DNA of 64,000 nucleotides from Octopus vulgaris (taxonomy: Eukaryota). A model generated the notes under the pieces. The model had not been told where the DNA came from. It searched no databases and was given only the letters and a program-made list of their open reading frames with translations. Positions within the stretch are counted from its first letter, which is position 1. Each line of letters starts with the position of its first letter. A program made the translations under genes and the position numbers. The DNA is taken from NCBI GenBank assembly GCA_951406725.2, contig OX597835.1, positions 31,682,001-31,746,000 of the forward strand. The letters are read 5' to 3'. Of the stretch, positions 594-60,784 are shown piece after piece.

Positions 594-729
594 GCTCGCA
601 GAAAAAAAAAATTTATAAATTCATCTTTCCCTAAAACATACCACTGCAAGCGGGAGTGACTGTTTAAAGATCTGAGAAATTGTAATTCCCCCACCTCCAC
701 CCTTTTTTTACTATTTTAATTCTCACACT

Positions 730-1668
730 GTGGCCGTAGCAGCAATAGTAGTGACTACGGTGGTTGTAGTAGTAGTGCTGCTAGTGGAAGCAGTCGTAGT
801 GGTCGTGGTGGTTGTAGTAGAATTTCATTTTTCCTTTTCGGAAGACCAATGTTTTGTTTTAATATTCCTGAACACCCTGAATAATAATATGATAAAGAAA
901 TATAATAATAACAATAATAATGACAGTTTTAATAATAATAAGAAGGAAAATAAGAATAAAATTTGGTTAATAGTTCCTTATGGTGCTCAAGTTAAAACGA
1001 ACATTATTAAAGAGACTTTAGATATTATTGAACTATTTATTCGAGATAATCATAAATATAAAAACATTTTCTCTAGTAATAATTTTGGAGTAAGTTATTC
1101 CACCACTAATAGTGTAGGTAACATTATTTCTTCTTTTAACAAATTTAAACTGAATAATTTTTATAAAAATAAATTATATAATAATACCAATAATAAAGAT
1201 AAGACACTAATTAACTGTACATGTAGAGATAAAACTAAATGTAAATTAAATAATAAATGTGATATTAACGATGTAATGCATAAATGTATAGTTACATTAC
1301 ATGATGAGAATAATATTAATAATAATAACTCAAACGCGATATATATAGGGTCCACTTCCTCTAAAATAAAATTAAGAATCGCACAACATATGAATTCATT
1401 TAAAAATAAAAACTTAATTAACTCCACTGGACTTAGCAAGTACATTTGGGGACTTAAATCCCAAAATATTAATTATAATATATCTTGGGAAATAATTAGT
1501 AAAACTAAATCATATAGTATAGGAGCGAATTTTTGTTATTTATATTCTAATGAGTTTAAGGAAATTTTATTTTATAAGCATAATAATTTACTGAATATCT
1601 GTGATGAGCGCAAAATAAAATGCAGACACAAGTTACTTTACTTATATAATAATTTTTTTGATAAATAA
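730..1668 (+). CDS. Penelope-like retroelement (Naiad-type) C-terminal fragment: RT thumb/linker, Cys-rich finger and GIY-YIG endonuclease; 5' truncated, true PLE sequence starts ~860
   Basis: HKYKNIFSSNNFGVSYST..IISSFN; CTCRDKTKC..C linker; IYIGST..KLRIAQHMNSF..STGLSKYIWGLK..ISWEII..C.LY..E..LLN..KCRH match the PLE GIY-YIG layout. The first ~40 aa are (GTA/GTG)n filler. Confidence 0.8.
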   Translation: MAVAAIVVTTVVVVVVLLVEAVVVVVVVVVEFHFSFSEDQCFVLIFLNTLNNNMIKKYNNNNNNDSFNNNKKENKNKIWLIVPYGAQVKTNIIKETLDIIELFIRDNHKYKNIFSSNNFGVSYSTTNSVGNIISSFNKFKLNNFYKNKLYNNTNNKDKTLINCTCRDKTKCKLNNKCDINDVMHKCIVTLHDENNINNNNSNAIYIGSTSSKIKLRIAQHMNSFKNKNLINSTGLSKYIWGLKSQNINYNISWEIISKTKSYSIGANFCYLYSNEFKEILFYKHNNLLNICDERKIKCRHKLLYLYNNFFDK

Positions 1669-9959: not shown

Positions 9960-10950
9960 ACTCTCAGTGTAGACCTGTCAGTCGGAAAGAAGGTGTTGGA
10001 GAGGGCTTTGCCCTTGGTATTTAGAGTGTTCTCGGATGGTGGTGTTCCTTGATTGTCGCTATAGGTCCTCTTGTATCAGGGGCCCCTATTCTTAACTAAT
10101 TCCCGTATTTTCCAGGGTGGATTGTTGGAAGTCCCGTTAATGTACTTTGGCTTATGAAATGGTTCAAATAATCCAATATCAAGACAGAAAGTAGCGTCAA
10201 GAAAATTTACTCTACCATAATCTTTACTCATAGTAATGTTTAGTCCTAAGATTTTAAAAAGTCTTAAGAAATTTTTCCTGTGCTTTTATAATTGCACTTT
10301 GCTACTTCTGTCCAGAAAAAATAAAGCATCATCCCTATATAGACGCCCTGATACTTTCCGAAAGGAAGACTGAATTAATGAAAGGATATATATTCCGACT
10401 AGTTCAGCGACCTGTGCAGAATCGTATGAGCCCATTGCTATAACAAATGCATTCTCCCTATCTAATTTACTCCATAATCTACCATCGGAATTTCCTAGAA
10501 TGGCTCGTGCAGCAAGTATAATATCTATTTCGCGTCGAGACAAATCGGAATTTTTGATGCTATAAATCAGGGTTCTACTATGGACGATCAGTTTAATAGT
10601 GGCATAATAGTTCTCTATATCTAGTTACAAGCAGTTAATATTTCTAGAAGCTTGAACCATCCAGCCACCTCTTTGATAACGGACCAGAGGACTAATCTAC
10701 TTTTAGACTTAAGGGTGGGTATCAATGATTTTTGTAAAGTAATAATACCTATATCAGATTTAGATGGACAAATTAATCTAACAGGGAGGTCAAAAAGAAA
10801 AATTAGATTTATGGTCCTTAAGAAAAATTTGGGGTTTTCGAGGGACGTAGGACTCGATTCTATCCTCTATAGCTAAATCTCTGACGATTTGTATCCCGGA
10901 ATTGTGGATTCTTTTTTAATACTTTGTTACTAGCTTATCTATATTTCCAG
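9960..10950 (-). pseudogene. Degenerate Naiad-type Penelope-like reverse transcriptase
   Basis: Read across frames: FLKDHKSNF..PVRLICPSKSDIG; W..IKEVAGWF; DIENYYATI; MGSYDSAQVAELVG; LYRDDAL; GLNIT..VNFLDATF..KPKYINGTSNNPP. Confidence 0.85.
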
Positions 10951-12060: not shown

Positions 12061-12681
12061 TTACAGATTTATGCTTAAAATAGTGTCGTCTTTCATACTG
12101 ACCATTTTTGCCACTTTTACCCACTTTTTATTAAAACATTCGTTCGACAAAGCCTTCCTCTCTATTCTCATCCTCCTTTTCAAGTGGTACTTGAAAAAGT
12201 TGACGAGAGACTGACCAGAGAGGAAGGTGTTTGTTTGCAGTCCTTTCAAACGCGTCCACCACACACATTCTTTCGCCATAGCCATCAGCGTAACGAAAAC
12301 CGTTTTCCCTTCCCGTTTAAAGGAAGGTGGTGGAACAATATCCACGATAGACTCGGCCGATAGGCGAGCCCGACCTACACGTGACAACAGCTGTTCGACG
12401 AAGGACCACAGCTCTGAAATATCTGGACACTGCACGAGTGCGTGCAGAACGGTTTCGTCGCTCTGACCGCATCTCGGGCAGGTCGGTCCGGTGATGGTTT
12501 TCGAACCGTGTCTGTAGTTCTTCTCTCGAACAGGTAGTGCGTCTCGATAGCACTGCCAAGCCAGGGATTTCTGGAAGTTATCCATAGGCCCCGGCCCGAA
12601 CGTCGTCCTGAACAGGCGGGTTAGGAATTCTTCGTCGACGCCCAGGTTTGCCCCGAGTGTGTCGTCGAACCTCCCCTCCAC
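12061..12681 (-). CDS. Tx1 ORF2 part 3: C-terminal CCHC domain (second 1-nt frameshift near 12705)
   Basis: CPRCGQSDETVLHALVQCP; the reading TKAFYRGLVEGRFDD bridges the frameshift. Confidence 0.88.
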   Translation of the reverse strand: MEGRFDDTLGANLGVDEEFLTRLFRTTFGPGPMDNFQKSLAWQCYRDALPVREKNYRHGSKTITGPTCPRCGQSDETVLHALVQCPDISELWSFVEQLLSRVGRARLSAESIVDIVPPPSFKREGKTVFVTLMAMAKECVWWTRLKGLQTNTFLSGQSLVNFFKYHLKRRMRIERKALSNECFNKKWVKVAKMVSMKDDTILSINL

Positions 12682-12700
12682 TAGTCCTCTATAGAACGCT

Positions 12701-13768
12701 TTAGTCGTTTGTAAGATTGCACAAGTTTGACCCCGGTCGGCAGAGCTGCTGTAGAGCTTGGCGACACTCTCGGTGCCAATCGCCCAGTTTCGGTCTCTTT
12801 TTGATCCACGTTTGCAGTTCGGTCAGTGAGACGAGCTGCGGGAAGTCGCGCCTCACAAACGGCGCCCACACCTGTTCACCGTCGTCGATGAATTTCCAGA
12901 GATGTCGCAGTCTCAGCGCATGCCAGCGCATCATCAACCACGGCATGTCCAGACCTCCATTCAACGGATGTTGACAGCAAATGGACTTCCTCACCATCGG
13001 AACGCCACCCTTCCACAGGAAGCGGAAGAGTATGCGTTCCAGTTTGGTGATGGTGGCGTCGGGACAAGGTACGACGGTCAGGCGGTAATCGATGACGGAT
13101 GCGATGTACGCGTTCGCCACCTCCGCAAGGCTTTTTAGAGACAGCTTTCTCTCAGCCCATGTGTGGCTGAGAGCCACCACTCTACTCGTGATCTCGTCCC
13201 AGTTCTTATCCATTTGGAGGTCCGGACTGAACCAGACCCCGAGCAATTTAACCGGTCCGTCCGTCCAGCGTCCCACTACTGAGCCGCAGTCGGACGGCAT
13301 GGGCTTGCTTCTCCAGGTGCCGAGTAGCAAACCCACTGACTTTTCCGGGTTAATCTTTGCTCCCGTCACCGTTTCGTATTTTCTCAGTGTCTCGCCAATC
13401 ATCTTGATGTGTTTGTCGCTCGACACTATGACGGTGACATCGTCCGCATATGCCGACACGCTCGTCCCGCAACCCAGTTCCCGTGGGATACCCCTCAGAG
13501 TCTCCAGCTTCCGCAGTAGCGGCTCAAGAGTCAATACATACAGAAGCGCCGACAGGGGACACCCCTGACGGACCGAACGCGTGATGTCAAACGGTTTCGA
13601 CAGGTGACCGTTCACCCGAATAACCGATCGGATGCCGCTATACAAGGCAGCGATCCAACCGCGGAAGACGGGACCGAAGCCAGCCGCCCTGAGGACGGCC
13701 GCCAAGTACCGATGGTCGACCCTATCGAAGGCTTTAGACTGATCCAAATTTATCAGCGCCCCACCCAT
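12701..13768 (-). CDS. Tx1 ORF2 part 2: RT core (joined to part 1 by a 1-nt frameshift)
   Basis: LDQSKAFDRVDH, SVRQGCPLS, AYADDVT, AKINPEKS, KLLGVWF, GGLDMP. Confidence 0.93.
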   Translation of the reverse strand: MGGALINLDQSKAFDRVDHRYLAAVLRAAGFGPVFRGWIAALYSGIRSVIRVNGHLSKPFDITRSVRQGCPLSALLYVLTLEPLLRKLETLRGIPRELGCGTSVSAYADDVTVIVSSDKHIKMIGETLRKYETVTGAKINPEKSVGLLLGTWRSKPMPSDCGSVVGRWTDGPVKLLGVWFSPDLQMDKNWDEITSRVVALSHTWAERKLSLKSLAEVANAYIASVIDYRLTVVPCPDATITKLERILFRFLWKGGVPMVRKSICCQHPLNGGLDMPWLMMRWHALRLRHLWKFIDDGEQVWAPFVRRDFPQLVSLTELQTWIKKRPKLGDWHRECRQALQQLCRPGSNLCNLTND

Positions 13769-15510
13769 GCCAGGATCCTTACTACCCTGTCCACAATGTA
13801 GCGCATCAGATGGAGGTTGTCATGTATGGTTCTGCCCGGCACGGCGCATGTTTGCGCCCTGTCGACCAGTTTACCAATGACAAGCGCCAACCTCTCGGCT
13901 ATTACTTTGGCCAAAATTTTCAAATCTGCGTTGAGCAGAGTGATGGGCCTGAAATTATCTATAAAATTCCCCTTCTTTGGGTCTTTCTTCAGCAACGTTA
14001 CTGCACCTCGGCTCACGAAACCGGGGATTCTCCCGTTTTGTTGCCAGTTGCAGTAGACTGATGCCAAGAGGTCGCCAAACAAGTCTGGCATTCGACAATA
14101 CAGCTCGTAGGGTAAACCATCCAATCCAGGCGACTTATCCCTCGCGCAGCCCGCCATCGCATCCCACACGTCAGCGGCTGTGATGGGACTTTCACAACAC
14201 TCCGCTTCTCTTGCCGAGAGCCGCGGCAGGTCGGTCAGGTAGGCACTGAAATCCATCCCGCGTTCCGACCCACCACTCGCACCAAACAGTCGAGCAAAGT
14301 GCTGTTGAAAGGCCTCACACATCCTTTCGGGTTCGAGTAAACTGCATCCCTGTTGATCTATTAGAGACCGAATGGTGGCTCTGTTGCCACGCTGCGCCTC
14401 CGCTACCCGGGCCTCTCGCGCAGCTTCGATCCCTTCGTTCCTTAAGGCACGCATTTTAGCTCTGACGACGCAACCTTCATGCTTGGCATTGAGGTGTTGG
14501 CCGAGGGCCATCCTCGCAGCCAGCACGTTGGTTGCGCTGCCAGTGGTAAGTGCCTCTTCTAGTTTCTTAACCAAGTCTCCCTCTACTCTATTTCGTTCTA
14601 TCGCTAATTCCTTGCTAAACCTAATTGATTCCGATTTTATTGCCATTTTCAGGGCGTACCACCAGCGGTTGTTAACGACGGCTCCCGTCAGCGCCCTCTT
14701 AATTAACTCGCTAATCCGGTTCCTGTAAACCTGTCGCGCTAACAGCGACGTGTTCAGTTTCCAGTAACCGGGACCCTGCCTATGTGTTTTATCTAAGTCG
14801 AGCGTACACGTAACAAATTTGTGATCTGTGTAGCTGACTATTTTAAATTGTGGACATCCTACACTATCCCTATCCGCTGTCCTGCATAGAATTCTATCTA
14901 GATAAGATCTCGACGATCCGACGCGTTTTGTCCAAGTCCACGATGGCACGTTCGGATGGTCGAGTCGGAACCTGTCAGACAAATGGAAACGTCTGAGCAG
15001 GTCTTTGAGGCTCCTACACCCCCTTCTATTCCTATCCCTTCCCACATAATCTAGATGCGTGTCCAAGGTAGCGTTCCAATCCCCTACTAACAGTAAAGGT
15101 CTAGACGTACCCAGGAAAACCTCTAGACATCTGAAGAAATCCGCCCGACCCGTTAAGGACGGTGCATAAACTGCCATCAGACGGAATGCACACCCATTTC
15201 TGCCATCCACGTCCAAGACAACCAGCCTACCCTCCGGGTCTAGGAATATTGCTCTTACTTTTACATTTAGACTCTTTCGAAAAAGCACCGCAGTACCTCC
15301 ACCACCCATGTTCGGCAGACAGGGAGAAAAATAAATGTCAAATTGATTGCCAAACATGGACTCGAGGGCCCGCGGCTTACTGAGTCTGGTTTCACTGATA
15401 GCTACTATATCCACATTCAGTGACTTGATGTCGTTTAGAAGGTAACCTTGCTTCCAAGCCGACGCCAAGCCACGCGCATTCACACGACCTAATTTAAGCA
15501 TACTTGACAT
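13753..15510 (-). CDS. Tx1 ORF2 part 1: AP endonuclease and start of RT
   Basis: NARGL, ISETR, AVYAP, GDWNA, SYLDRIL, YTDHK, GPGYWKLNTSLL, KSPGLDGLPYELY, NFRPITLLNADLKILAK. Confidence 0.93.
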   Translation of the reverse strand: MSSMLKLGRVNARGLASAWKQGYLLNDIKSLNVDIVAISETRLSKPRALESMFGNQFDIYFSPCLPNMGGGGTAVLFRKSLNVKVRAIFLDPEGRLVVLDVDGRNGCAFRLMAVYAPSLTGRADFFRCLEVFLGTSRPLLLVGDWNATLDTHLDYVGRDRNRRGCRSLKDLLRRFHLSDRFRLDHPNVPSWTWTKRVGSSRSYLDRILCRTADRDSVGCPQFKIVSYTDHKFVTCTLDLDKTHRQGPGYWKLNTSLLARQVYRNRISELIKRALTGAVVNNRWWYALKMAIKSESIRFSKELAIERNRVEGDLVKKLEEALTTGSATNVLAARMALGQHLNAKHEGCVVRAKMRALRNEGIEAAREARVAEAQRGNRATIRSLIDQQGCSLLEPERMCEAFQQHFARLFGASGGSERGMDFSAYLTDLPRLSAREAECCESPITAADVWDAMAGCARDKSPGLDGLPYELYCRMPDLFGDLLASVYCNWQQNGRIPGFVSRGAVTLLKKDPKKGNFIDNFRPITLLNADLKILAKVIAERLALVIGKLVDRAQTCAVPGRTIHDNLHLMRYIVDRVVRILAWVGR

Positions 15511-16205
15511 TTACGAAAATTGTGTTTTACACACTACATTAGAAGAGACAAGAGGCAAGAGGGGAGGTCACTTACTCATTTTAAAAGTTTCTTTTTTTCT
15601 TCTTCTTTTGTATTGTTTTTGATGAGGTGTTTGTATAGTTTTTTCGACAGGTATCGTTGAAACCCGCCTACCGCATTCGGAAATATTGTTTTCAGTATGT
15701 GGTGTTGTGCTTGTGTTATATGTAAAATTCTGATGTGTGTCGGTGGTGTGGTGTGCGGATGATTGTTTGTCTTAAAGTCATCTTCACAGATAACCGTGCT
15801 GGATGTGATGTAGTCCATTAATTCTTTATTGTCTGTGTATATTGCAGTTAGTTGTGTGTGTGGTTTTAAGGTTTCATTGCTTTTTTGATTGTCTAGGGGG
15901 ATGTTGTCCGGAGTTAGATATCTCCCTGCTTTACTTCCTTGTTTGGTGGATTTTTTGGATCTTTTCCTTTTACCCCTGTGGCTATTTGCCATTCCGTCGA
16001 ACTTTCGTCGTCCGACGTATCAGTAGAAGGTAAAGGCAAAGCATTTGCATTACTATGTATGCTTGTAAAAATTGTTGATGTTTTGTGCGGTGTTTGTGTT
16101 GTTGTGGTGTTAGGGGTAGAATTTGTCTTCTCGTCACTGTTTTCTGTCTTTTTAATTGTCGTCCTGGGTGTGGGTGTTGGTCTATTTTTTGTTGATTCAA
16201 CATGT

Positions 16206-17417
16206 TTAATTGGTTGTGACGTCAACGGTGATTGTGTTGGTACTGTTTCTTTTCTTGGTGATGTTGTTGGGGTTTGTTTGCTGGTTTGTTGTTTTTCTTG
16301 GCATTGTTCCATAATTGAGTGTGTTGGTGTTGGTGTTGGCAACAAGGGTTTTTTTATTTGTTTTCTGATTTGTTCTTTCTTGTTTTTTCTGTACCAGAGC
16401 GCACTTGGCAATTAAATGTTCGGGGCTGCCACAGTTGTAGCATCTAGGCTTTTTGCCTTCTGCTACAACATATAGGCATTGCCCATTTTCCAAGTGGATC
16501 TTATCCGGTAGGCTCTCGATAGAGGCCCCCTCAATCTGTATGGTCACCACTATTATCTTCCCACCCCAAATGTCGTCAAGGTACACGGCTGTTTCCAAAA
16601 TGTTGATATTTTTTAAATGGTGACAGATTGCCCCTGTTATCCATTTGTTAGGAATCTCGGGAGGTACATTTTTAATAGTGATTCGACTCACTCTCTGGTT
16701 TTTATAGTATGGGACCATGATGATTTCATCATTTCCCAGAAACTCAATAGAGTGAGCTTTTGCCACTTCCTGGTTAGGGAAGCAGACCACTACTGTGTTA
16801 AATTGGGGACCCGAGTTTATATATTCTTTTTCTTTCATTATGTTTTTTAAGCATTTTTCTACATCCGTTTTTGTAATCTGTTCATTTAGTTTTTTGTTTT
16901 TTCTTATAATTTTATAAATAATTGTCTTATTTTCTATTTCTTGCTTTATGTGTTGAGGTGTATGCAGCACTAAATCTTGTCCACGGGTTGTAAAGAGAGC
17001 TCTTGTTTCTATGAGCTCTTCATTTGTAAATGTTACAATCTCCTTCTTCTGGCGAAGAGTGTCAGCGAAATTTACTGGTGTTGTTGATTTTTTTGTATTA
17101 ACATCTTCACTATTAGATAGTTCATTTTTATTGTTGTTCTTGTTGTTGCTGTTGTTTTTTTCAATAGTTTTCGTGTGAGTTTTATTTTTATCATTTATGT
17201 TGGTCGTGGTAGTGGTGGTGGTGGTGGTGGTGGTGGAGGTGGTGGCGGTAGCAGTAGTAGTCTCGTGGTTGCTGTTGTTAGTGGTGGTGGTGGTGATGAC
17301 AGGGCTGTTACCGCACGTGGTTGCAGCGTTCATTCCACCGATATTCATGTTTGCACTTTGCGTGCCTACGTTCTTTTTTTCTCCTAGCGTTTCCAGACTA
17401 GGAAAATGCTGGTCCAT
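16206..17417 (-). CDS. Tx1 ORF1 gag-like protein; probably continues by frameshift through 16411-15914 and 15992-15576
   Basis: RRM-like region (ITIKNVPPEIPNKWI..), zinc knuckle CYNCGSPEHLIAKC, then a low-complexity T/P/K-rich tail in adjacent frames. Confidence 0.8.
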   Translation of the reverse strand: MDQHFPSLETLGEKKNVGTQSANMNIGGMNAATTCGNSPVITTTTTNNSNHETTTATATTSTTTTTTTTTTTNINDKNKTHTKTIEKNNSNNKNNNKNELSNSEDVNTKKSTTPVNFADTLRQKKEIVTFTNEELIETRALFTTRGQDLVLHTPQHIKQEIENKTIIYKIIRKNKKLNEQITKTDVEKCLKNIMKEKEYINSGPQFNTVVVCFPNQEVAKAHSIEFLGNDEIIMVPYYKNQRVSRITIKNVPPEIPNKWITGAICHHLKNINILETAVYLDDIWGGKIIVVTIQIEGASIESLPDKIHLENGQCLYVVAEGKKPRCYNCGSPEHLIAKCALVQKKQERTNQKTNKKTLVANTNTNTLNYGTMPRKTTNQQTNPNNITKKRNSTNTITVDVTTN

Positions 17418-17654
17418 AAAAGAACGCGACTAGCGTTCTACAATAACATTTCTCGACATTTTCTAATGTCGAGAAGAAAATTACAGAAATGAAATGGGGT
17501 TGAAACTGCCCCTAGGGGCGAATTCCTCCCTTGGAAAAGCACTCAAACGAAAGTTGGGTGCCTTACACACCTTATTTGCAAAAATGTACACAAAATATGG
17601 GCTATAAATAGTAAAAAAAAGGATGACCTTCGGAGCCGAAGTGACAGCACGTCC

Positions 17655-18553: not shown

Positions 18554-19522
18554 TGTTTCTTTATTAGCCACACAGGGCTGCACACAGATAGAACAAATTA
18601 CAAGGTAGAGCTTTTCTTTTGAAGGTTTAAAAAAAAAAAAAAAAAAAAAAGGAAGGGGGAGTTTCGATCAAAAGGGATCGTAAAAGGAGAGAAAGAGGAC
18701 AAAAAAAGGGGGGTTAAAAAAAAAGGGGGAGAGAAAAAAAAATTGATCAATAGGGATCGTTATCACAGAAATGTCAATATGAAGTGTAAAGGGGAGGACA
18801 GGTGAGGTTTACCCGTGGAAAGAAAAGCCTACGGAAAAGACCACGGTAACCTCGGTCAATGAAGTCACATTTTATATTTCTTTTTTTTTTTTTTTTTGCA
18901 AATAAGCAACTCTCTGTTTTCGATTTCTGGGTTCATAGGATCATGCTCAAGGTGGCTTTGTCATTCATACGTGCCATTCTTGCTACATTCACCCATCTTT
19001 TTTTAAAACATTCGCTAGACAAAACTTGCCTCTCTACTCTCACTTTCCTTTTCAAGTGGTACTTGAAGAAGTTGATGAGAGATTGACCAGAGAGGAAAGT
19101 GTTTGTCTCCAATCCTTTCAGACGCGTCCACCAGATACATTCTTTCGCCATAGCCACAAGGATGATGAAAATAGCTCTTCCTTCCCGTTTGAAGGAAGGA
19201 GGCGTGACAATATTGACGATAGACTCAGCTGATAAACCGACTCGTCCCACACGTGACAGCAGTTGTTCGACATAAGCCCACAGGTCGGAAATTATTGGAC
19301 ACTGAACGAGTGCGTGCAGAACGGTTTCGTCGCTCTGACCGCATCTCGGGCAGGTCGGCCCCGTGTTTCTCGAGCCGTGTCTGTAGAGCTTATCCCGAAC
19401 GGGTAGCGCTTCTCGGTAGCACTGCCAGGCCAGGGATCTCTGGAAGTTGTCCATGGGCCCTGGCCCGAAAGTCGTCCTGAACAGGCGGGTCAGGTACTCC
19501 TCGTCGACGTCCAGGTTCGCCC
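18554..19522 (-). mobile_element. 5'-truncated Tx1 copy (related subfamily) inserted in (GATA)n
   Basis: ORF 18933-19454 aligns residue by residue with 12061-12681 (MDNFQRSLAWQCYREALPVR..CPRCGQSDETVLHALVQCP); the truncation point joins (AGAT)n directly at 19523. Confidence 0.92.
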
Positions 19523-22659: not shown

Positions 22660-22662
<3 letters not shown>

Positions 22663-22855
22663 ATTCATATTTTAAAACAAACAAGGAAAGACTATATAAA
22701 ATTTTAATATAAATTAAATAATTATTTAATTTATATTAAAATTTTATGTATTGATTAAGTCTTTCCTTGTTTGGTTTTAAAATATATTATATTATATAAT
22801 ATTTTACTATAAAATTGGATTTAACCCTAAATATAATTTTGGATTCATTCCCTAA

Positions 22856-22860
<5 letters not shown>
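22660..22860 (+). mobile_element. Foldback PLE 3'-end fragment, same family as 3780-3945
   Basis: AAAACAAACAAGGAAAGACT..AATTAAATA / TATTTAATT..AGTCTTTCCTTGTTTGGTTTT inverted arms, then TACTATAAAATTGGATT..TTCCCTAATATTT as at 3870-3940; (TA)n on both sides. Confidence 0.7.
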
Positions 22861-28770: not shown

Positions 28771-29042
28771 ATGTGTTGACAGATACATCTGTCTGTCTAT
28801 CTGATCAATAGACTAACAGATATGTATGTACGTATGAGTAAATTTATAGATACATGTGTATAAATATACATACATATATATATATGAGAATGTTTTGCGT
28901 AATAAGATAAAAAAACCAAGGCTGTGTAGATATTAGAGCATTTATATATAGAAGGTCTTACAGCTGTTTCTAGGATATTTATTAAATGTATCCCTCCATT
29001 ATATATATGTATGTATATTATATATGTATGTATGTATCTATG

Positions 29043-29079
<37 letters not shown>

Positions 29080-29336
29080 TCATATATGTATATATATGTG
29101 TGTATATATATAATGTATGTATGTATATATATAAATAGATGAGTGTATTTTTACCTTGTTAACAATTAACAGGGAAAAAATAAATAAGTAGTTACCAGGG
29201 TAGCAAAAATCTCACCACTAAAGATGTTGTAACTCCTTGTTTATAAAGGTAGAAACTTCGTGTTTACGTTCAATATATTGAATAATATATGAATAAATAA
29301 ATGGAGTTTAACGCAGGTGTAATCAAATATTTTTAA

Positions 29337-29418
29337 TTTCGACATATGTTTCGAAAATTCCACTGATACTATTCAAAAGAATATATAGTATAAACAATGC
29401 AATCTTCTCCTCAGGAAA
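29337..29418 (-). ncRNA. Type I hammerhead ribozyme (left arm)
   Basis: Minus strand: tttc CTGAGGA gaagattgcattg..cagtggaattttc GAAA catatg TC gaaa. Confidence 0.82.
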
Positions 29419-29986
29419 GTGAAAAAAGCGAAACTCGTCAATACGACATTTTAGCAAAAAATTATGGATTTGTATAGCGATAGACAGAACGCTATTAATA
29501 TTGTTTAAAAAAACGTTATATGATATAACGTCATAAGTAGCTAACAGAAAGAGTAGGGATACCAATAGTGAATGTTAAATATAAAGGAAATTAAAGTTTA
29601 AATTATATATAATGATAGAGACTACTTATATGCACTAAATGTATGTTTTTGCCAATGCTTACATCTGTATGCTCGTTCTATAACCGTGTTTACTAGAGTA
29701 TTTTTCATTATTTTTTCTAAAAATACTCTAGTAAACACGGTTATAGAACGAGCATACAGATGTAAGCATTGGCAAAAACATACATTTAGTGCATATAAGT
29801 AGTCTCTATCATTATATATAATTTAAACTTTAATTTACTATTGGTATCCCTACTCTTTCTGTTAGCTACTTATGACGTTATATCATATAACGTCTTTTTA
29901 AACAATATTAATAGCGTTCTGTCTATCACTATACAAATCCATCATTTTTTGCTAAAATGTCGTATTGACGAGTTTCGCTTTTTTCA

Positions 29987-30070
29987 CTTTCCTGAGGAGA
30001 AGATTGCATTGTTTATATCATTTATTCTTTTGAATAGTATCAGTGGAATTTTCGAAACATGTGTCGAAAG
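29987..30070 (+). ncRNA. Type I hammerhead ribozyme (right arm)
   Basis: ctttc CTGAGGA gaagattgcattg..cagtggaattttc GAAA catgtg TC gaaag. Confidence 0.82.
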
Positions 30071-30109
30071 TAAAAATATTTGATTACACCTTAAATCATT
30101 TATTTATTC

Positions 30110-30162
<53 letters not shown>

Positions 30163-30176
30163 GTATATATATATGT

Positions 30177-30204
<28 letters not shown>

Positions 30205-30210
<6 letters not shown>

Positions 30211-30268
30211 GTGAATTGAGAAATGGAGCTCCATTTATTTCATTCATATGATATAATATATATAGGAA

Positions 30269-30300
<32 letters not shown>

Positions 30301-30590
30301 TATATATATATTCGATATTTCCTATTTTCTTCCTGAAGAGAAAGACACAATATGGTCCCATTATTCCATCGGATTTTGGTAATTTGTAAACACGTGTAGA
30401 ATGAATAAAACGATTTCGTTCAATCTGCGTTCAGCTCCATTTCTTCAATTCACCAATATGTTCTAATTTCATATCCGCACCAACGCACGGTTGCAACACC
30501 ATATGGTTGTACCTCCAGCCGTATTTTTGCTACTAAGGTATCGGTTAAACTTTTGATTAATCTACTATTATTCATCTTTCTATTTCACAT
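30205..30590 (+). mobile_element. pLTR-like element with degenerate HHR (30330-30401) and a short inverted 5' copy
   Basis: ttc CTGAAGA..TAAA cacgtg TA gaa (G12 lost); CGTTCAGCTCCATT shared with ~44990; 30206-30235 is the inverted copy of ~30436-30460. Confidence 0.55.
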
Positions 30591-40271: not shown

Positions 40272-40845
40272 GAGCGAAATGCTTAGTAGTATTTCGTCTG
40301 GCGCTACGTTCTGAGTTCAAATTCTGCCGAGGTCGACTTTGCCTTTCATCCTTTCGGGGTCGATTAAATAAGTACCAGTTACGCACTTCGGTCGATGTAA
40401 TCGACTTAATCCCTTTGTCTGTCCTTGTTTGTCCTCTCTGTGTTTAGCCCCTTGTGGGTAGTAAAGAAATACGTATTTCGTCTGCCGCAACGTTCTGAGT
40501 TCAAATTCCGCCGCGGTCGACTTTGCCTTTCATCCTTTCGGAGTCGACTACATAAGTACCAGTTACGCACTGGAGTCAATATAACCGACTTAATCCCTTT
40601 GTCTGTCCTTGTTTGTCATCTCTGTGTTTAGCCCCTTGTGAGTAGTAAAGAAATAGGTATTTCGTCTGACGCAACGTTCTGAGTTCAAATTCCGCCGCGG
40701 TCGACTTTGCCTTTCATCCTTTCGGAGTCGACTACATAAGTACCAGTTACGCACTGGAGTATATGTAATCGACCTAATCGGTTTGTCTGTCCTTATTTGT
40801 CCCCTCTATGTTTATCCCCTTGTGGGTAATGAAGAAATAAGAAAC
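40272..40845 (+). mobile_element. Tandem trimer of SINE family B
   Basis: Three consecutive units GTATTTCGTCTG..GTTCTGAGTTCAAATTC..AGCCCCTTGTG.GTA.TAAAGAAAT. Confidence 0.88.
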
Positions 40846-44384: not shown

Positions 44385-44463
<79 letters not shown>

Positions 44464-44668
44464 TTGAGTAGTTGAATGAATTATCTTATCAAGGATAATT
44501 CGAATTAACCGATACATGGGTAGCAAATTCACATCAGAAAAAACACGGTTGAAGTTATGTGCCTAGGGCAAAGATTACGTGTTTTCGTGTAGAAATTTGT
44601 ATGTTTATTTTCAAAATATAAATATATGAAAGAATGGAGCTGAACGATGAATTAACAAAATTCCTTTA

Positions 44669-44751
44669 TTTTCGATATATGTTTCGAAGGCTGCATATTC
44701 CTAATTGCGAAGGAATAAGGAGTACATTATGCCGCTTTCTCATCAGGAAAA
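44669..44751 (-). ncRNA. Type I hammerhead ribozyme (left arm; one stem III mismatch)
   Basis: Minus strand: ttttc CTGATGA gaaagcggcata..tatgcagccttc GAAA catata TC gaaaa. Confidence 0.75.
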
Positions 44752-44883
44752 GCAAGGAACTTATGTCAACATCAAAATGCACAAAAAACTTTTAGATGAT
44801 TGCTCACATGGGGCCCATGTGCTCCATGTGAGCAATCATCTAAAGGTTTTTTGTGCATTTTGATGTTGACATATGTTCCTTGC

Positions 44884-44966
44884 TTTTCCTGATGAGAAAG
44901 CGGCATAATGTACTCCTTATTCCTTCGCAATTAGGAATATGCAGCCTTCGAAACATATGTCGAAAA
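44884..44966 (+). ncRNA. Type I hammerhead ribozyme (right arm)
   Basis: ttttc CTGATGA gaaagcggcata..tatgcagccttc GAAA catatg TC gaaaa. Confidence 0.85.
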
Positions 44967-45003
44967 TAAAGGAATTTTGTTAATTCGTCGTTCAGCTCCA
45001 TTC

Positions 45004-45044
<41 letters not shown>

Positions 45045-50334: not shown

Positions 50335-50657
50335 TGATTTTATTTATCTAAAAGTCACAATACATGTATTAAAGCGCTACTAATGGTTTCATGTGTTGAG
50401 AGAACTAAGAAATATTCTTAAGGAGCAAATATGTCATAACGAACTAAAGAAATTGAATAATAAAACAAACGCGAAAAAAACGAGAAAGCAGCATATAGTT
50501 CGTTATGAGATGTGGTTTACGCCTGATGAATATGTTAGAGTTCTCTCAAAGTATGAAACTATTAGTAGTGCTTTAATATATGTATTGTGACGTTTAAATA
50601 AATACTATTTATCTCTCACCAGATGGAAAACATTTTTTGTTGAACTTTCTATCACGA

Positions 50658-50665
<8 letters not shown>
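50335..50665. mobile_element. Older foldback element with HHR (intact right arm 50520-50570, decayed left arm)
   Basis: GTCACAATACATGTATTAAAGCGCTACTAATGGTTTCAT mirrors ATGAAACTATTAGTAGTGCTTTAATATATGTATTGTGAC; cgc CTGATGA atat..gtat GAAA ctattag TA gtg; (TA)n flanks. Confidence 0.78.
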
Positions 50666-51454: not shown

Positions 51455-51660
51455 TGACCCCGTGTGTACCTTTGGCGATTTTTTTCCTCTGTCTTCCCCT
51501 CTCGGGATCTTTCCTTCTCCTATGTTTCCGACGAAGAGCTCCGCTAGAAACGTTAAGCCCTCCTTCTTCCCTTCTTTCCTGAGCGTCCAATAATACTATA
51601 TTTGTTCCACGTCCTCGCGTTGTTGTGTTTTTTTGTGTTTTTTTAACTATTTATATATAT

Positions 51661-51716
<56 letters not shown>

Positions 51717-51890
51717 ATCCAAACATGAAAACACAACAACGCGAGGGCGTGGAAGAAGTATAGTGTTATTGGACGCTCAGGAAAGAAGGAGAGAAGGAGG
51801 GTTTAACGTTTTGAGCGGAAATGTAGGAAAGATCCAAAGAAGAGAAGACGGAGGAAACGAATCGCCAACGGTACACACGCGGTCACATAT
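51455..51890. mobile_element. Two H2 elements tail-to-tail across a (TA)n tract (51455-51650 plus, 51712-51890 minus)
   Basis: Plus copy: gttt CCGACGA a gagc tcc gcta GAAA cg TT aagc (51524-51558). The minus copy has the core deleted. Confidence 0.7.
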
Positions 51891-57278: not shown

Positions 57279-57497
57279 ATAAGGGGGAATTATTTTACCA
57301 TTATGTGGAAACACTTACGCTAGAAGAAGAGATCTTCTTCTAGCGTAAGGGTTTTCACATAGTGGTAAAAAAATTCCAACTTATATTTAAGTATGAAATA
57401 CTATTTTCTGAATCTCAGCTTGTTTATTTGCTAGACCTGTGGTGTTAAAATTGATGTTATTTAATTAATATCCAATTTTTCACCCTCATTGTGATTA

Positions 57498-57500
<3 letters not shown>
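57279..57500. mobile_element. Short foldback element (arms 57279-57385) with one-sided extension; no HHR seen
   Basis: TTTTACCATTATGTGGAAAC.CTTACGCTAGAAGAAGA ga TCTTCTTCTAGCGTAAG.GTTTTCACATAGTGGTAAAA; (TA)n on the left. Confidence 0.75.
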
Positions 57501-60144: not shown

Positions 60145-60179
<35 letters not shown>

Positions 60180-60211
60180 TTTAATTAAAGCAGCAGAAAA
60201 TTCAACAAAAT

Positions 60212-60249
60212 CTGTTACTCTGAGTTTCTCGTTGCCGTTCATCAGACAG
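60212..60249 (-). ncRNA. Minimal type I hammerhead (left arm)
   Basis: Minus strand: ctgt CTGATGA a cg gcaa cg a GAAA ctcagag TA acag; stem II is only ~2 bp. Confidence 0.7.
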
Positions 60250-60428
60250 TTTTTGCTAGAATGGAACCGATATATCAATTCAATCCAGACTCTTACAAAC
60301 GCTGCACCTTTAAAAAATGGACTTGTTTGATAGGGCCAATCAAACAAGTCAATTTTTTTTTTAAAAAAGGTGTAGCGTTTGTAAGAAGTCTGGATTGAAT
60401 TGATATATCGGTTCCATCCTAGCAAAAA

Positions 60429-60466
60429 CTGTCTGATGAACGGCAACGAGAAAATCAGAGTAACAG
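60429..60466 (+). ncRNA. Minimal type I hammerhead (right arm; stem III mismatch)
   Basis: ctgt CTGATGA acggcaacga GAAA atcagag TA acag. Confidence 0.62.
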
Positions 60467-60568
60467 ATTTTTAAAATTTTCTGCTGCTTTAAATAAAGCA
60501 TATTACTCTACCACTGGTATTTGAGTACTCTTTTTTTCCACCTTGTTTCACATTTATGTGTTTACTCC

Positions 60569-60603
<35 letters not shown>

Positions 60604-60607
60604 TGTG

Positions 60608-60784
60608 TGTATTTCGTCTGTCGTTACGTTCTGAGTTCAAATTCCGCCGAGGTTGACTTTGCCTTTCATCCTTTCGGGGTCGATAAATAAAGTACGTTTC
60701 GCACTGGGGTCGATGTAATCGACTTAATCCCTTGTCTGTCCTTGTTTGTCCCCTCTGTGTTTAGCCCTTGTGGGTAATAAAGAA

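What the first reader, a model, noticed from the sequence alone, without database searches (positions are those of the whole stretch)
29120..30115. Foldback mini-elements with a hammerhead ribozyme on each strand, inserted in (TA)n (type example)
Seen: ~400-bp near-perfect inverted arms with a 13-nt spacer. Each arm carries a complete type I hammerhead (CTGAGGA..GAAA..TC), so ribozymes lie in both polarities and point outward into TA-rich tracts. One side has an extra unpaired ~170-bp tail. The same architecture recurs with different sequences at 44460-45013, 50335-50665 and 60179-60570, and without a HHR at 22660-22860 and 57279-57500. Established: Penelope-like elements carry HHRs in their pLTRs and can leave inverted pLTRs; retrozymes are non-autonomous HHR-bearing retroelements; viroid-like RNAs are rods with HHRs in both polarities. 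Inference: these form a diverse class of non-coding, TA-targeting PLE derivatives ('palindromic retrozymes'). They could be made afresh by template-switch inversion at each insertion, or propagated as a hairpin RNA unit.
Basis: partly seen in the sequence, partly recalled or inferred. Interest (0 to 1): 0.88.

Follow-up and report, generated by a model that had tools for sequence, protein, structure and literature searches.

The report
Head-to-head Penelope retrotransposon tail ends
This palindrome is two cut-short tail ends of a protein-coding Penelope-like jumping gene joined head to head in a TA microsatellite, a known kind of footprint, likely made afresh at each insertion rather than spread as a ribozyme hairpin.

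Summary
The palindrome and both hammerhead motifs are real. The 'palindromic retrozyme' reading is not supported. Both arms hold the last codons of a GIY-YIG endonuclease. In other copies the same sequence is the 3' end of a 2,863-bp Penelope-like element (PLE) with a 775-aa RT + endonuclease frame, open in 3 of the 10 best protein-hit loci. All 45 inversion junctions examined differ, and no second copy of this centre appeared among the 40 candidates scored. Inverted, 5'-truncated PLE copies with a hammerhead on each strand in (TA)n are published (Penelope-13_HM, Hydra clade). Five of the six window elements link to PLE frames; the two 'HHR-less' ones are truncated before their hammerhead.

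What remains of interest: in 32 of 32 complete composites one arm ends at site A (with tail) and the other at site B (148 nt upstream), joined by short microhomology. This favours priming from both cut target strands over fold-back. The parent family is Hydra-like but lacks the CxCX5C linker and has a 55-nt helix II. This scan noted the same kind of thing, including the two-strand idea, on other DNA.

The parts
29000..29134 (.). Degenerate (TA)n tract, left half of the target
29135..29286 (-). 152-bp tail ending at fixed terminus A; in tandem copies this sequence runs on for 55 nt to the ATG of the next unit
29135..29705 (-). Arm A: 5'-truncated 3' end of the PLE (end of ORF, 3' UTR, hammerhead, tail)
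29335..29420 (-). Type I hammerhead motif, core CUGAGGA at 29414, 55-nt helix II region, predicted cut after 29341; helix I shortened to 4 bp
29622..29705 (-). Last 27 codons and stop of the GIY-YIG endonuclease (CxH motif)
29699..29705 (.). 7-nt overlap shared by both arms: the inversion junction
29699..30113 (+). Arm B: second 5'-truncated 3' end, reaching 20 nt further 5' than arm A (this gives the 13-nt 'spacer', 29706-29718) and ending at fixed terminus B, without the tail
29701..29802 (+). Last 33 codons and stop of the GIY-YIG endonuclease
29986..30071 (+). Type I hammerhead motif, core at 29992, helix I 6 bp, 55-nt helix II region, short near-palindromic helix III, predicted cut after 30065
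30114..30206 (.). (TA)n tract, right half of the target
44464..45010 (.). Family F2: same anatomy; sister family of the focal one (about 62% protein identity in the parts seen), 54-nt helix II region, ORF-linked in 6 of 20 loci
50341..50664 (.). Family F4: older composite, left hammerhead core mutated; ORF with CxCX5C linker in other copies (ORF hits in 5 of 20 loci)
60179..60570 (.). Family F3: composite with compact Hydra-type hammerhead; ORF hits in 8 of 20 loci
22660..22856 (.). Family F5 stub truncated 3' of its hammerhead; L218 is a long copy with RT-EN frame and an inverted 5' arm
57279..57500 (.). Family F6 stub truncated 3' of its hammerhead (46-nt helix II region in longer copies); link to an ORF not shown

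Best explanation
The palindrome is a single insertion made of two 5'-truncated 3' ends of an autonomous Penelope-like retrotransposon joined head to head, likely produced when both cut strands of a (TA)n target prime reverse transcription of the element's RNA at two fixed start sites. SHOWN by sequence: the parent is a 2,863-bp unit with one RT + C-terminal GIY-YIG frame, a type I hammerhead motif in the 3' UTR and two fixed termini, A and B, 148 nt apart; composites pair one A end with one B end; junctions fall anywhere and carry short microhomology. INFERRED: the element's endonuclease nicks both strands of (TA)n; one 3'-OH starts at A and the other at B on the same or a sibling transcript; both cDNAs stop early; their 3' ends anneal through a few complementary bases and repair fills in. 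The hammerhead is a passenger of the 3' UTR, present twice only because both arms are longer than about 290 nt.
For: Autonomy: ORF continues upstream in other copies; 775-aa frames without stops in L129-L131, 3 of the 10 loci fetched; nearest Atlas clusters carry HTH_animal and GIY-YIG families on part of their members. Tandem pLTR copies run from the tail into the ORF start (L040, L130; F2 L051; F3 L066, L071). No fixed centre: 45 of 45 junction pairs distinct; only the window spans its own junction among 40 scored of 1,016 candidates. Reciprocal ends: of 82 F1 insertions, 45 have inverted pieces; the 32 with two canonical ends are all A/B, none A/A or B/B (16 of the 32 from loci not chosen on the tail), while single-orientation insertions end at A (24) or B (12). 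Microhomology: exact overlap of 3 or more nt at 29 of 45 junctions, against 7.6% in 20,000 random joins. Common template: in 29 of 30 arm pairs the arms are closer to each other than the median other copy is, and three pairs are identical over 113, 449 and 1,313 nt. Target: 111 of 113 canonical ends lie beside (TA)3. Independent DNA run X1 has 19 contigs leaving the element at terminus B into TA repeats. Literature: an anole PLE protein cuts and extends both target strands and starts at two internal sites that bound the tail, without needing ribozyme cleavage (PMC11167929).
Against: No biochemical test on this family. The anole work found no difference in start site between strands, so strict A/B reciprocity is not explained by it. 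Two overlapping arms up to 1.3 kb need two copies of the template or strand displacement, which is not shown. 13 of the 45 inverted insertions have one non-canonical or cut-off end and were not classed. Half of the sample was chosen for having end A, and only the best 40 candidates per search are scored, so frequencies are not genome-wide. Gene conversion between arms could also make them alike. In 18 of 23 two-piece composites the A arm is the longer, which fold-back would also allow.
Confidence: 0.75

Rival explanations
1. Same parent element, but the inversion arises by self-priming or template switch: one cDNA (or an antisense template) folds back on a short internal inverted match and is recopied, and the endonuclease then trims one end to site B.
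For: Proposed for rotifer Penelopes from palindromes at the junction (PMC3846280). Microhomology at junctions and near-identical arms fit. The focal junction sits on a natural 7-bp inverted match with a 13-nt loop. The A arm is the longer one in 18 of 23.
Against: In 5 of 23 two-piece composites, including this one, the shorter arm carries the tail that the longer arm lacks, so it cannot be a copy of it. Needs an extra trimming step to give 32 of 32 A/B.
Confidence: 0.17
2. The hairpin is itself a mobile non-coding unit ('palindromic retrozyme') whose two-polarity hammerheads process a replicating RNA.
For: Both focal cores are intact; non-LTR retrozymes are reported to derive from PLE ends (bioRxiv 10.64898/2026.07.22.740005).
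Against: No shared centre; arms contain ORF sequence; ribozyme predicted to be buried in the hairpin; one arm's motif is damaged in three of the other window elements; most family copies have no ribozyme-bearing second arm.
Confidence: 0.02
3. Two independent insertions landed head to head in the same TA tract, or the palindrome is an assembly fold-back.
For: The family is abundant (3,665 first-look candidates) and always targets TA. No contig bridged this particular junction in the four runs laid.
Against: No TA at the junction; arms share minor alleles; strict A/B pairing; arms differ by 8 substitutions and an 18-bp indel and end at different family-wide termini, which a read fold-back would not give.
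Confidence: 0.06

Closest known systems
Hydra clade of C-terminal-endonuclease Penelope-like elements (Craig et al. 2021, PMC8557442), including Hydra-1_Obim and Penelope-13_HM
   Same: Under 3 kb, one ORF, RT then GIY-YIG, DKT motif, no CCHH, C-terminal CxxC and CxH, type I hammerhead near the 3' end, (TA)n target. Penelope-13_HM is listed with a 5'-truncated inverted copy and a hammerhead on both strands (Files S1, S2). The F1 protein follows Hydra-1_Obim motif by motif by eye.
   Different: F1 and the part of F2 seen lack the CxCX5C linker that the nine Hydra proteins in Fig. S7 show; RWK reads RWL; helix II region is 54-55 nt against about 10-25 nt in File S2; tail is about 150 bp against the 30-40 bp described; a different family from Hydra-1_Obim.
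Inverted-pLTR insertions of EN+ PLEs (Adineta vaga Penelopes, PMC3846280; general scheme in PMC8557442 Fig. 2)
   Same: Head-to-head inverted 5'-truncated copy, tail on one end only, overlap at the junction, partial tandems.
   Different: Those papers describe the pattern qualitatively and favour self-priming; here it is counted (32 of 32 A/B) and points to two primers.
Poseidon element of Anolis carolinensis, PAc (PMC11167929)
   Same: Two internal RT start sites bounding the tail; AT-rich target; both strands cut and extended; hammerhead not needed for insertion in vitro.
   Different: Other clade; tail lies inside the ORF there, upstream of the ATG here; no strand preference of start site seen there.
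Non-LTR retrozymes (bioRxiv 10.64898/2026.07.22.740005; PMC7229834 seen as a listing only)
   Same: Type I hammerhead, PLE ancestry.
   Different: Retrozymes are non-coding direct tandem repeats; this is inverted, contains ORF sequence and has no fixed unit.
LINE-1 twin priming (recalled, no call)
   Same: Second target strand primes on the RNA, giving an inversion joined by microhomology.
   Different: In LINE-1 the second primer starts far upstream at variable places, so arms do not overlap; here it would start at a fixed site 148 nt from the first, giving a palindrome.

Membership tests
EN+ Penelope-like element | Single ORF with RT and GIY-YIG endonuclease | tested here: met
   775-aa frames with YRDD and YIGST motifs in L129-L131; Atlas neighbours with GIY-YIG/HTH_animal. 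Pfam and PDB sequence searches gave no useful hit.
EN+ Penelope-like element | Partial tandems forming pLTRs, frequent 5' truncation, inverted 5' copy, optional tail | tested here: met
EN+ Penelope-like element | Type I hammerhead motif in the pLTR | tested here: met
   36 of 110 F1 pieces have CUGANGA + GAAA + UH, 95 of 110 if C is allowed at position 4
EN+ Penelope-like element | Self-cleavage of the hammerhead | not testable with these tools
   fold prediction only
Hydra clade | Length under 3 kb, C-terminal EN, DKT in place of DKG | tested here: met
   unit 2,863 bp; DKT at residue 122
Hydra clade | No CCHH; CxxC and CxH near the C-terminus | tested here: met
   CLLC at 735, CKH at 763; only 8 cysteines in the protein
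Hydra clade | N-terminal RWK motif | tested here: inconclusive
   F1 has RIRWL; F3 has RLRWK, F5 RIKWK
Hydra clade | CxCX5C linker before the endonuclease | tested here: not met
   absent in 3 of 3 open F1 frames and in F2 copy L057; present in F3 and F4. F1 is therefore filed as Hydra-like, linker-less, not as a plain member.
Hydra clade | Insertion into (TA)n | tested here: met
   111 of 113 canonical ends
Hydra clade | Placement in the RT phylogeny | not tested
   reference proteins were seen only as text in the paper's supplement; compared by eye
Non-LTR retrozyme | Non-coding, non-autonomous | tested here: not met
   arms contain the ORF end; family has open frames
Non-LTR retrozyme | Direct tandem repeats with a hammerhead in each unit | tested here: not met
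   inverted, no tandem array here
Non-LTR retrozyme | Circular RNA intermediate | not testable with these tools
   only contigs of runs guessed to be RNA were on offer
Viroid-like or fold-back mobile unit | Fixed unit with a shared centre at many loci | tested here: not met

The most novel reading that the evidence does not exclude
These PLEs integrate by ordered double priming: each nicked target strand is tied to its own start site on the RNA (A or B), so every two-armed insertion is A/B and single-armed ones are the failures of one primer. The F1/F2 lineage does this and still targets (TA)n after losing the zinc-finger linker proposed to guide TA targeting. That would explain inverted pLTRs and the one-sided tail by one rule.
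Probability: 0.5. Interest if true: 0.55.

Novelty: new variant of a known kind. Interest (0 to 1): 0.3.

Why it matters
The architecture itself is in print, so it is not a new class of RNA replicon. Its use is as a large natural data set for an open question named by Craig et al.: how PLEs form tandem/inverted structures and pick microsatellites. A strict A/B rule and microhomology junctions give a sharp prediction for the in vitro system that now exists. A linker-less family that still lands in (TA)n at 111 of 113 ends weakens the idea that the CxCX5C finger is needed for TA targeting. If transcribed inside introns or UTRs, such 400-bp hairpins would be double-stranded RNA substrates for editing; that is untested here.

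Tried and rejected
Rfam E-value scan: only microRNA-type matches below gathering score among the 150 of 313 listed; no hammerhead shown. Pfam on four partial frames and on the full protein: no RT or GIY-YIG match. PDB sequence search: nothing below E 0.3. Naiad clade rejected: endonuclease is C-terminal. Neptune/Nematis rejected: DKT, no CCHH, Hydra-type RT4. Expression: no RNA holder listed on record; contigs of runs guessed to be RNA cover the 3' end but show no starts, ends or strand. A possible intron just before the ATG, read from the sequence of L040/L130, had no spliced joint in four runs of contigs. No listed contig bridged the focal junction. Link of F6 to an ORF: an endonuclease fragment lies near two F6 loci but on the other strand in the one examined (L217), so not shown. 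One search timed out part-way through F2 and was redone for F2-F4. Seven loci that duplicated longer fetches were dropped before all F1 counts (L003, L004, L015, L019, L021, L029, L127; L130, the reference). Literature searches for a two-primer model in PLEs returned 1 and 2 general reviews, seen as listings only; the library lacks most subscription papers, so this does not show the idea is unpublished.

Full report
OBSERVATION. The two arms lie at 29287-29705 and 29719-30113, with 387 of 395 aligned bases identical, an 18-bp indel and a 13-nt spacer. A descriptor scan found type I hammerhead cores at 29992 (+) and 29414 (-), each with a 55-nt helix II region and a short helix III, plus one at 44889. 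Thirty block shuffles gave one weak core in all. Both ends meet (TA)n. The unpaired tail is 29135-29286 (152 bp). The other five inverted elements are present, but in three of them one arm's motif is damaged. The host is likely an octopus, inferred from the 2.8-Gb genome with about 30 large contigs and its repeat content.

WHAT IT IS. The long arm matched 40 of 40 scored places at 94-100% among 3,665 first-look candidates. [quoted passage not shown] A protein search returned 78 matches; of the 10 loci fetched, 3 have a 775-aa frame without stops. The unit is 2,863 bp. The focal arms themselves include the last 33 and 27 codons of this frame, so the centre of the palindrome lies in coding sequence. 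In tandem copies the tail runs on 55 nt to the next ATG. Families F2, F3 and F4 have PLE frames in 6, 8 and 5 of 20 loci, and tandem copies of F2 and F3 run from tail into ORF. The two elements called HHR-less are truncated 3' of a hammerhead found in longer copies. F5 has a long ORF-bearing copy with an inverted arm (L218). For F6 an ORF link was not shown.

IS THE HAIRPIN A UNIT? No. A 146-nt query across the centre was spanned only by the window itself among 40 scored of 1,016 candidates. Among 82 F1 insertions (after dropping seven duplicate loci), 37 are single-orientation and 45 have inverted pieces; the 45 junctions measured are all different. Arm lengths run from about 50 nt to over 2 kb. 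Folding predicts that the isolated hammerhead is within 0.7 (right) and 3.1 (left) kcal/mol of its best fold. In a read-through transcript, 83 of its 86 nt pair with the other arm, and forcing the ribozyme costs about 110 kcal/mol.

HOW IT FORMS. The family has two fixed termini, A (end of tail) and B (148 nt upstream). All 32 composites with two canonical ends are A/B; 16 of them come from loci not chosen for the tail. Single-orientation copies end at A (24) or B (12); 13 inverted insertions had one other or cut-off end. 111 of 113 canonical ends lie beside (TA)3. DNA run X1 independently shows 19 contigs leaving at B into TA repeats. Exact junction overlap is 3 nt or more at 29 of 45 junctions (median 3), against 7.6% by chance. 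Arms of one insertion are closer to each other than the median other copy in 29 of 30 pairs, and identical in three; the focal pair differs by 3.0% against a median of 4.4%. This indicates a common source template, though conversion between arms cannot be excluded. In 5 of 23 two-piece composites, the focal one included, the tail-less arm reaches further 5', so the tail-bearing arm is not a fold-back copy of it. The simplest reading is that both nicked target strands prime, one at A and one at B, and the two cDNAs join by microhomology. This is inference. It agrees with the anole PLE, which cuts and extends both strands, starts at two internal sites bounding the tail and does not need ribozyme cleavage; that study saw no strand difference in start site (PMC11167929; passages and section 3 part 2). 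Self-priming is the published alternative (PMC3846280; passages and section 11).

COMPARISON WITH WHAT IS KNOWN. Craig et al. (PMC8557442; passages, section 11, supplement parts 2, 54, 58 and term searches) describe inverted 5'-truncated copies with a one-sided tail as a common PLE layout. They define the Hydra clade as under 3 kb, DKT, RWK, no CCHH, CxxC and CxH, CxCX5C linker, canonical hammerheads and (TA)n targets. Their tables list an octopus member and Penelope-13_HM with an inverted copy and a hammerhead on both strands. F1 meets length, domain order, DKT, CxxC/CxH and target; it has RWL for RWK and lacks the CxCX5C linker in 3 of 3 open frames. It is therefore filed as an EN+ PLE, Hydra-like, linker-less variant; no tree was built. 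Short palindromic helix III and weak monomer activity are typical of PLE hammerheads (PMC4209133; passages). Non-LTR retrozymes are non-coding direct tandems (bioRxiv 10.64898/2026.07.22.740005; first fifth read), which this is not. An octopus repeat annotation reports 31 recently active Penelope-like families (PMC13282606; first third read). LINE-1 twin priming is recalled, not looked up. Two searches for a two-primer model in PLEs gave only general reviews.

EARLIER NOTES. After I had reached this reading, the scan's own notes showed five reports of the same kind, one with the same two-strand idea. They are not independent evidence. The remark on editing substrates echoes one of them and is untested.

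VERDICT. That it is a truncated PLE insertion with a per-insertion inversion is about 95% sure; the two-primer mechanism about 75%. Interest 0.3: the counted A/B rule, the linker-less TA-targeting lineage, the long helix II and the changed core in the youngest copies (48 of 50) are useful leads for PLE specialists.

Noticed in passing
window 676-1668 (+): 330-aa open frame holding the 3' part of another Hydra-type PLE, with the CxCX5C linker and GIY-YIG endonuclease; 31% identical to the focal family's protein.
   Followed up: partly
window 10088-10920 (-): Decayed Hydra-type RT fragment with stops and frameshifts, E 1.5e-33 against the focal protein.
   Followed up: partly
window 12061-17429 (-), and 18933-19520 (-): Near full-length non-LTR retrotransposon in several frames (zinc-knuckle ORF1, endonuclease, RT; looks L1/Tx1-like by recall), plus a related 3' fragment beside ATAG repeats.
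   Followed up: no
window 51540-51819: Inverted pair of about 110 bp with (TA)n in the middle instead of outside, the reverse of the focal layout.
   Followed up: no
window 30207-30460: Small inverted ends next to TA tracts just right of the focal element, resembling the F2 end region (read).
   Followed up: no
F1 copies at least 97% like L130: 48 of 50 parsed pieces carry the core CCGAAGA instead of CUGANGA, and 42 of 50 a UA cut site; this is the group with open frames, so the newest wave spread with a changed catalytic core.
   Followed up: partly
L197-L215 (family F6) and F1/F2: Hammerheads with 46-55-nt helix II regions kept across copies in three families; File S2 of PMC8557442 lists only short ones for Hydra.
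   Followed up: partly
window 40289-40839 and about 60600-60750: 184-bp unit in three tandem copies; related sequence follows the F3 element.
   Followed up: no
L057 (family F2): Asparagine-rich stretch between RT thumb and endonuclease where other families have the zinc-finger linker, like the N-rich inserts described in rotifer Penelopes.
   Followed up: no
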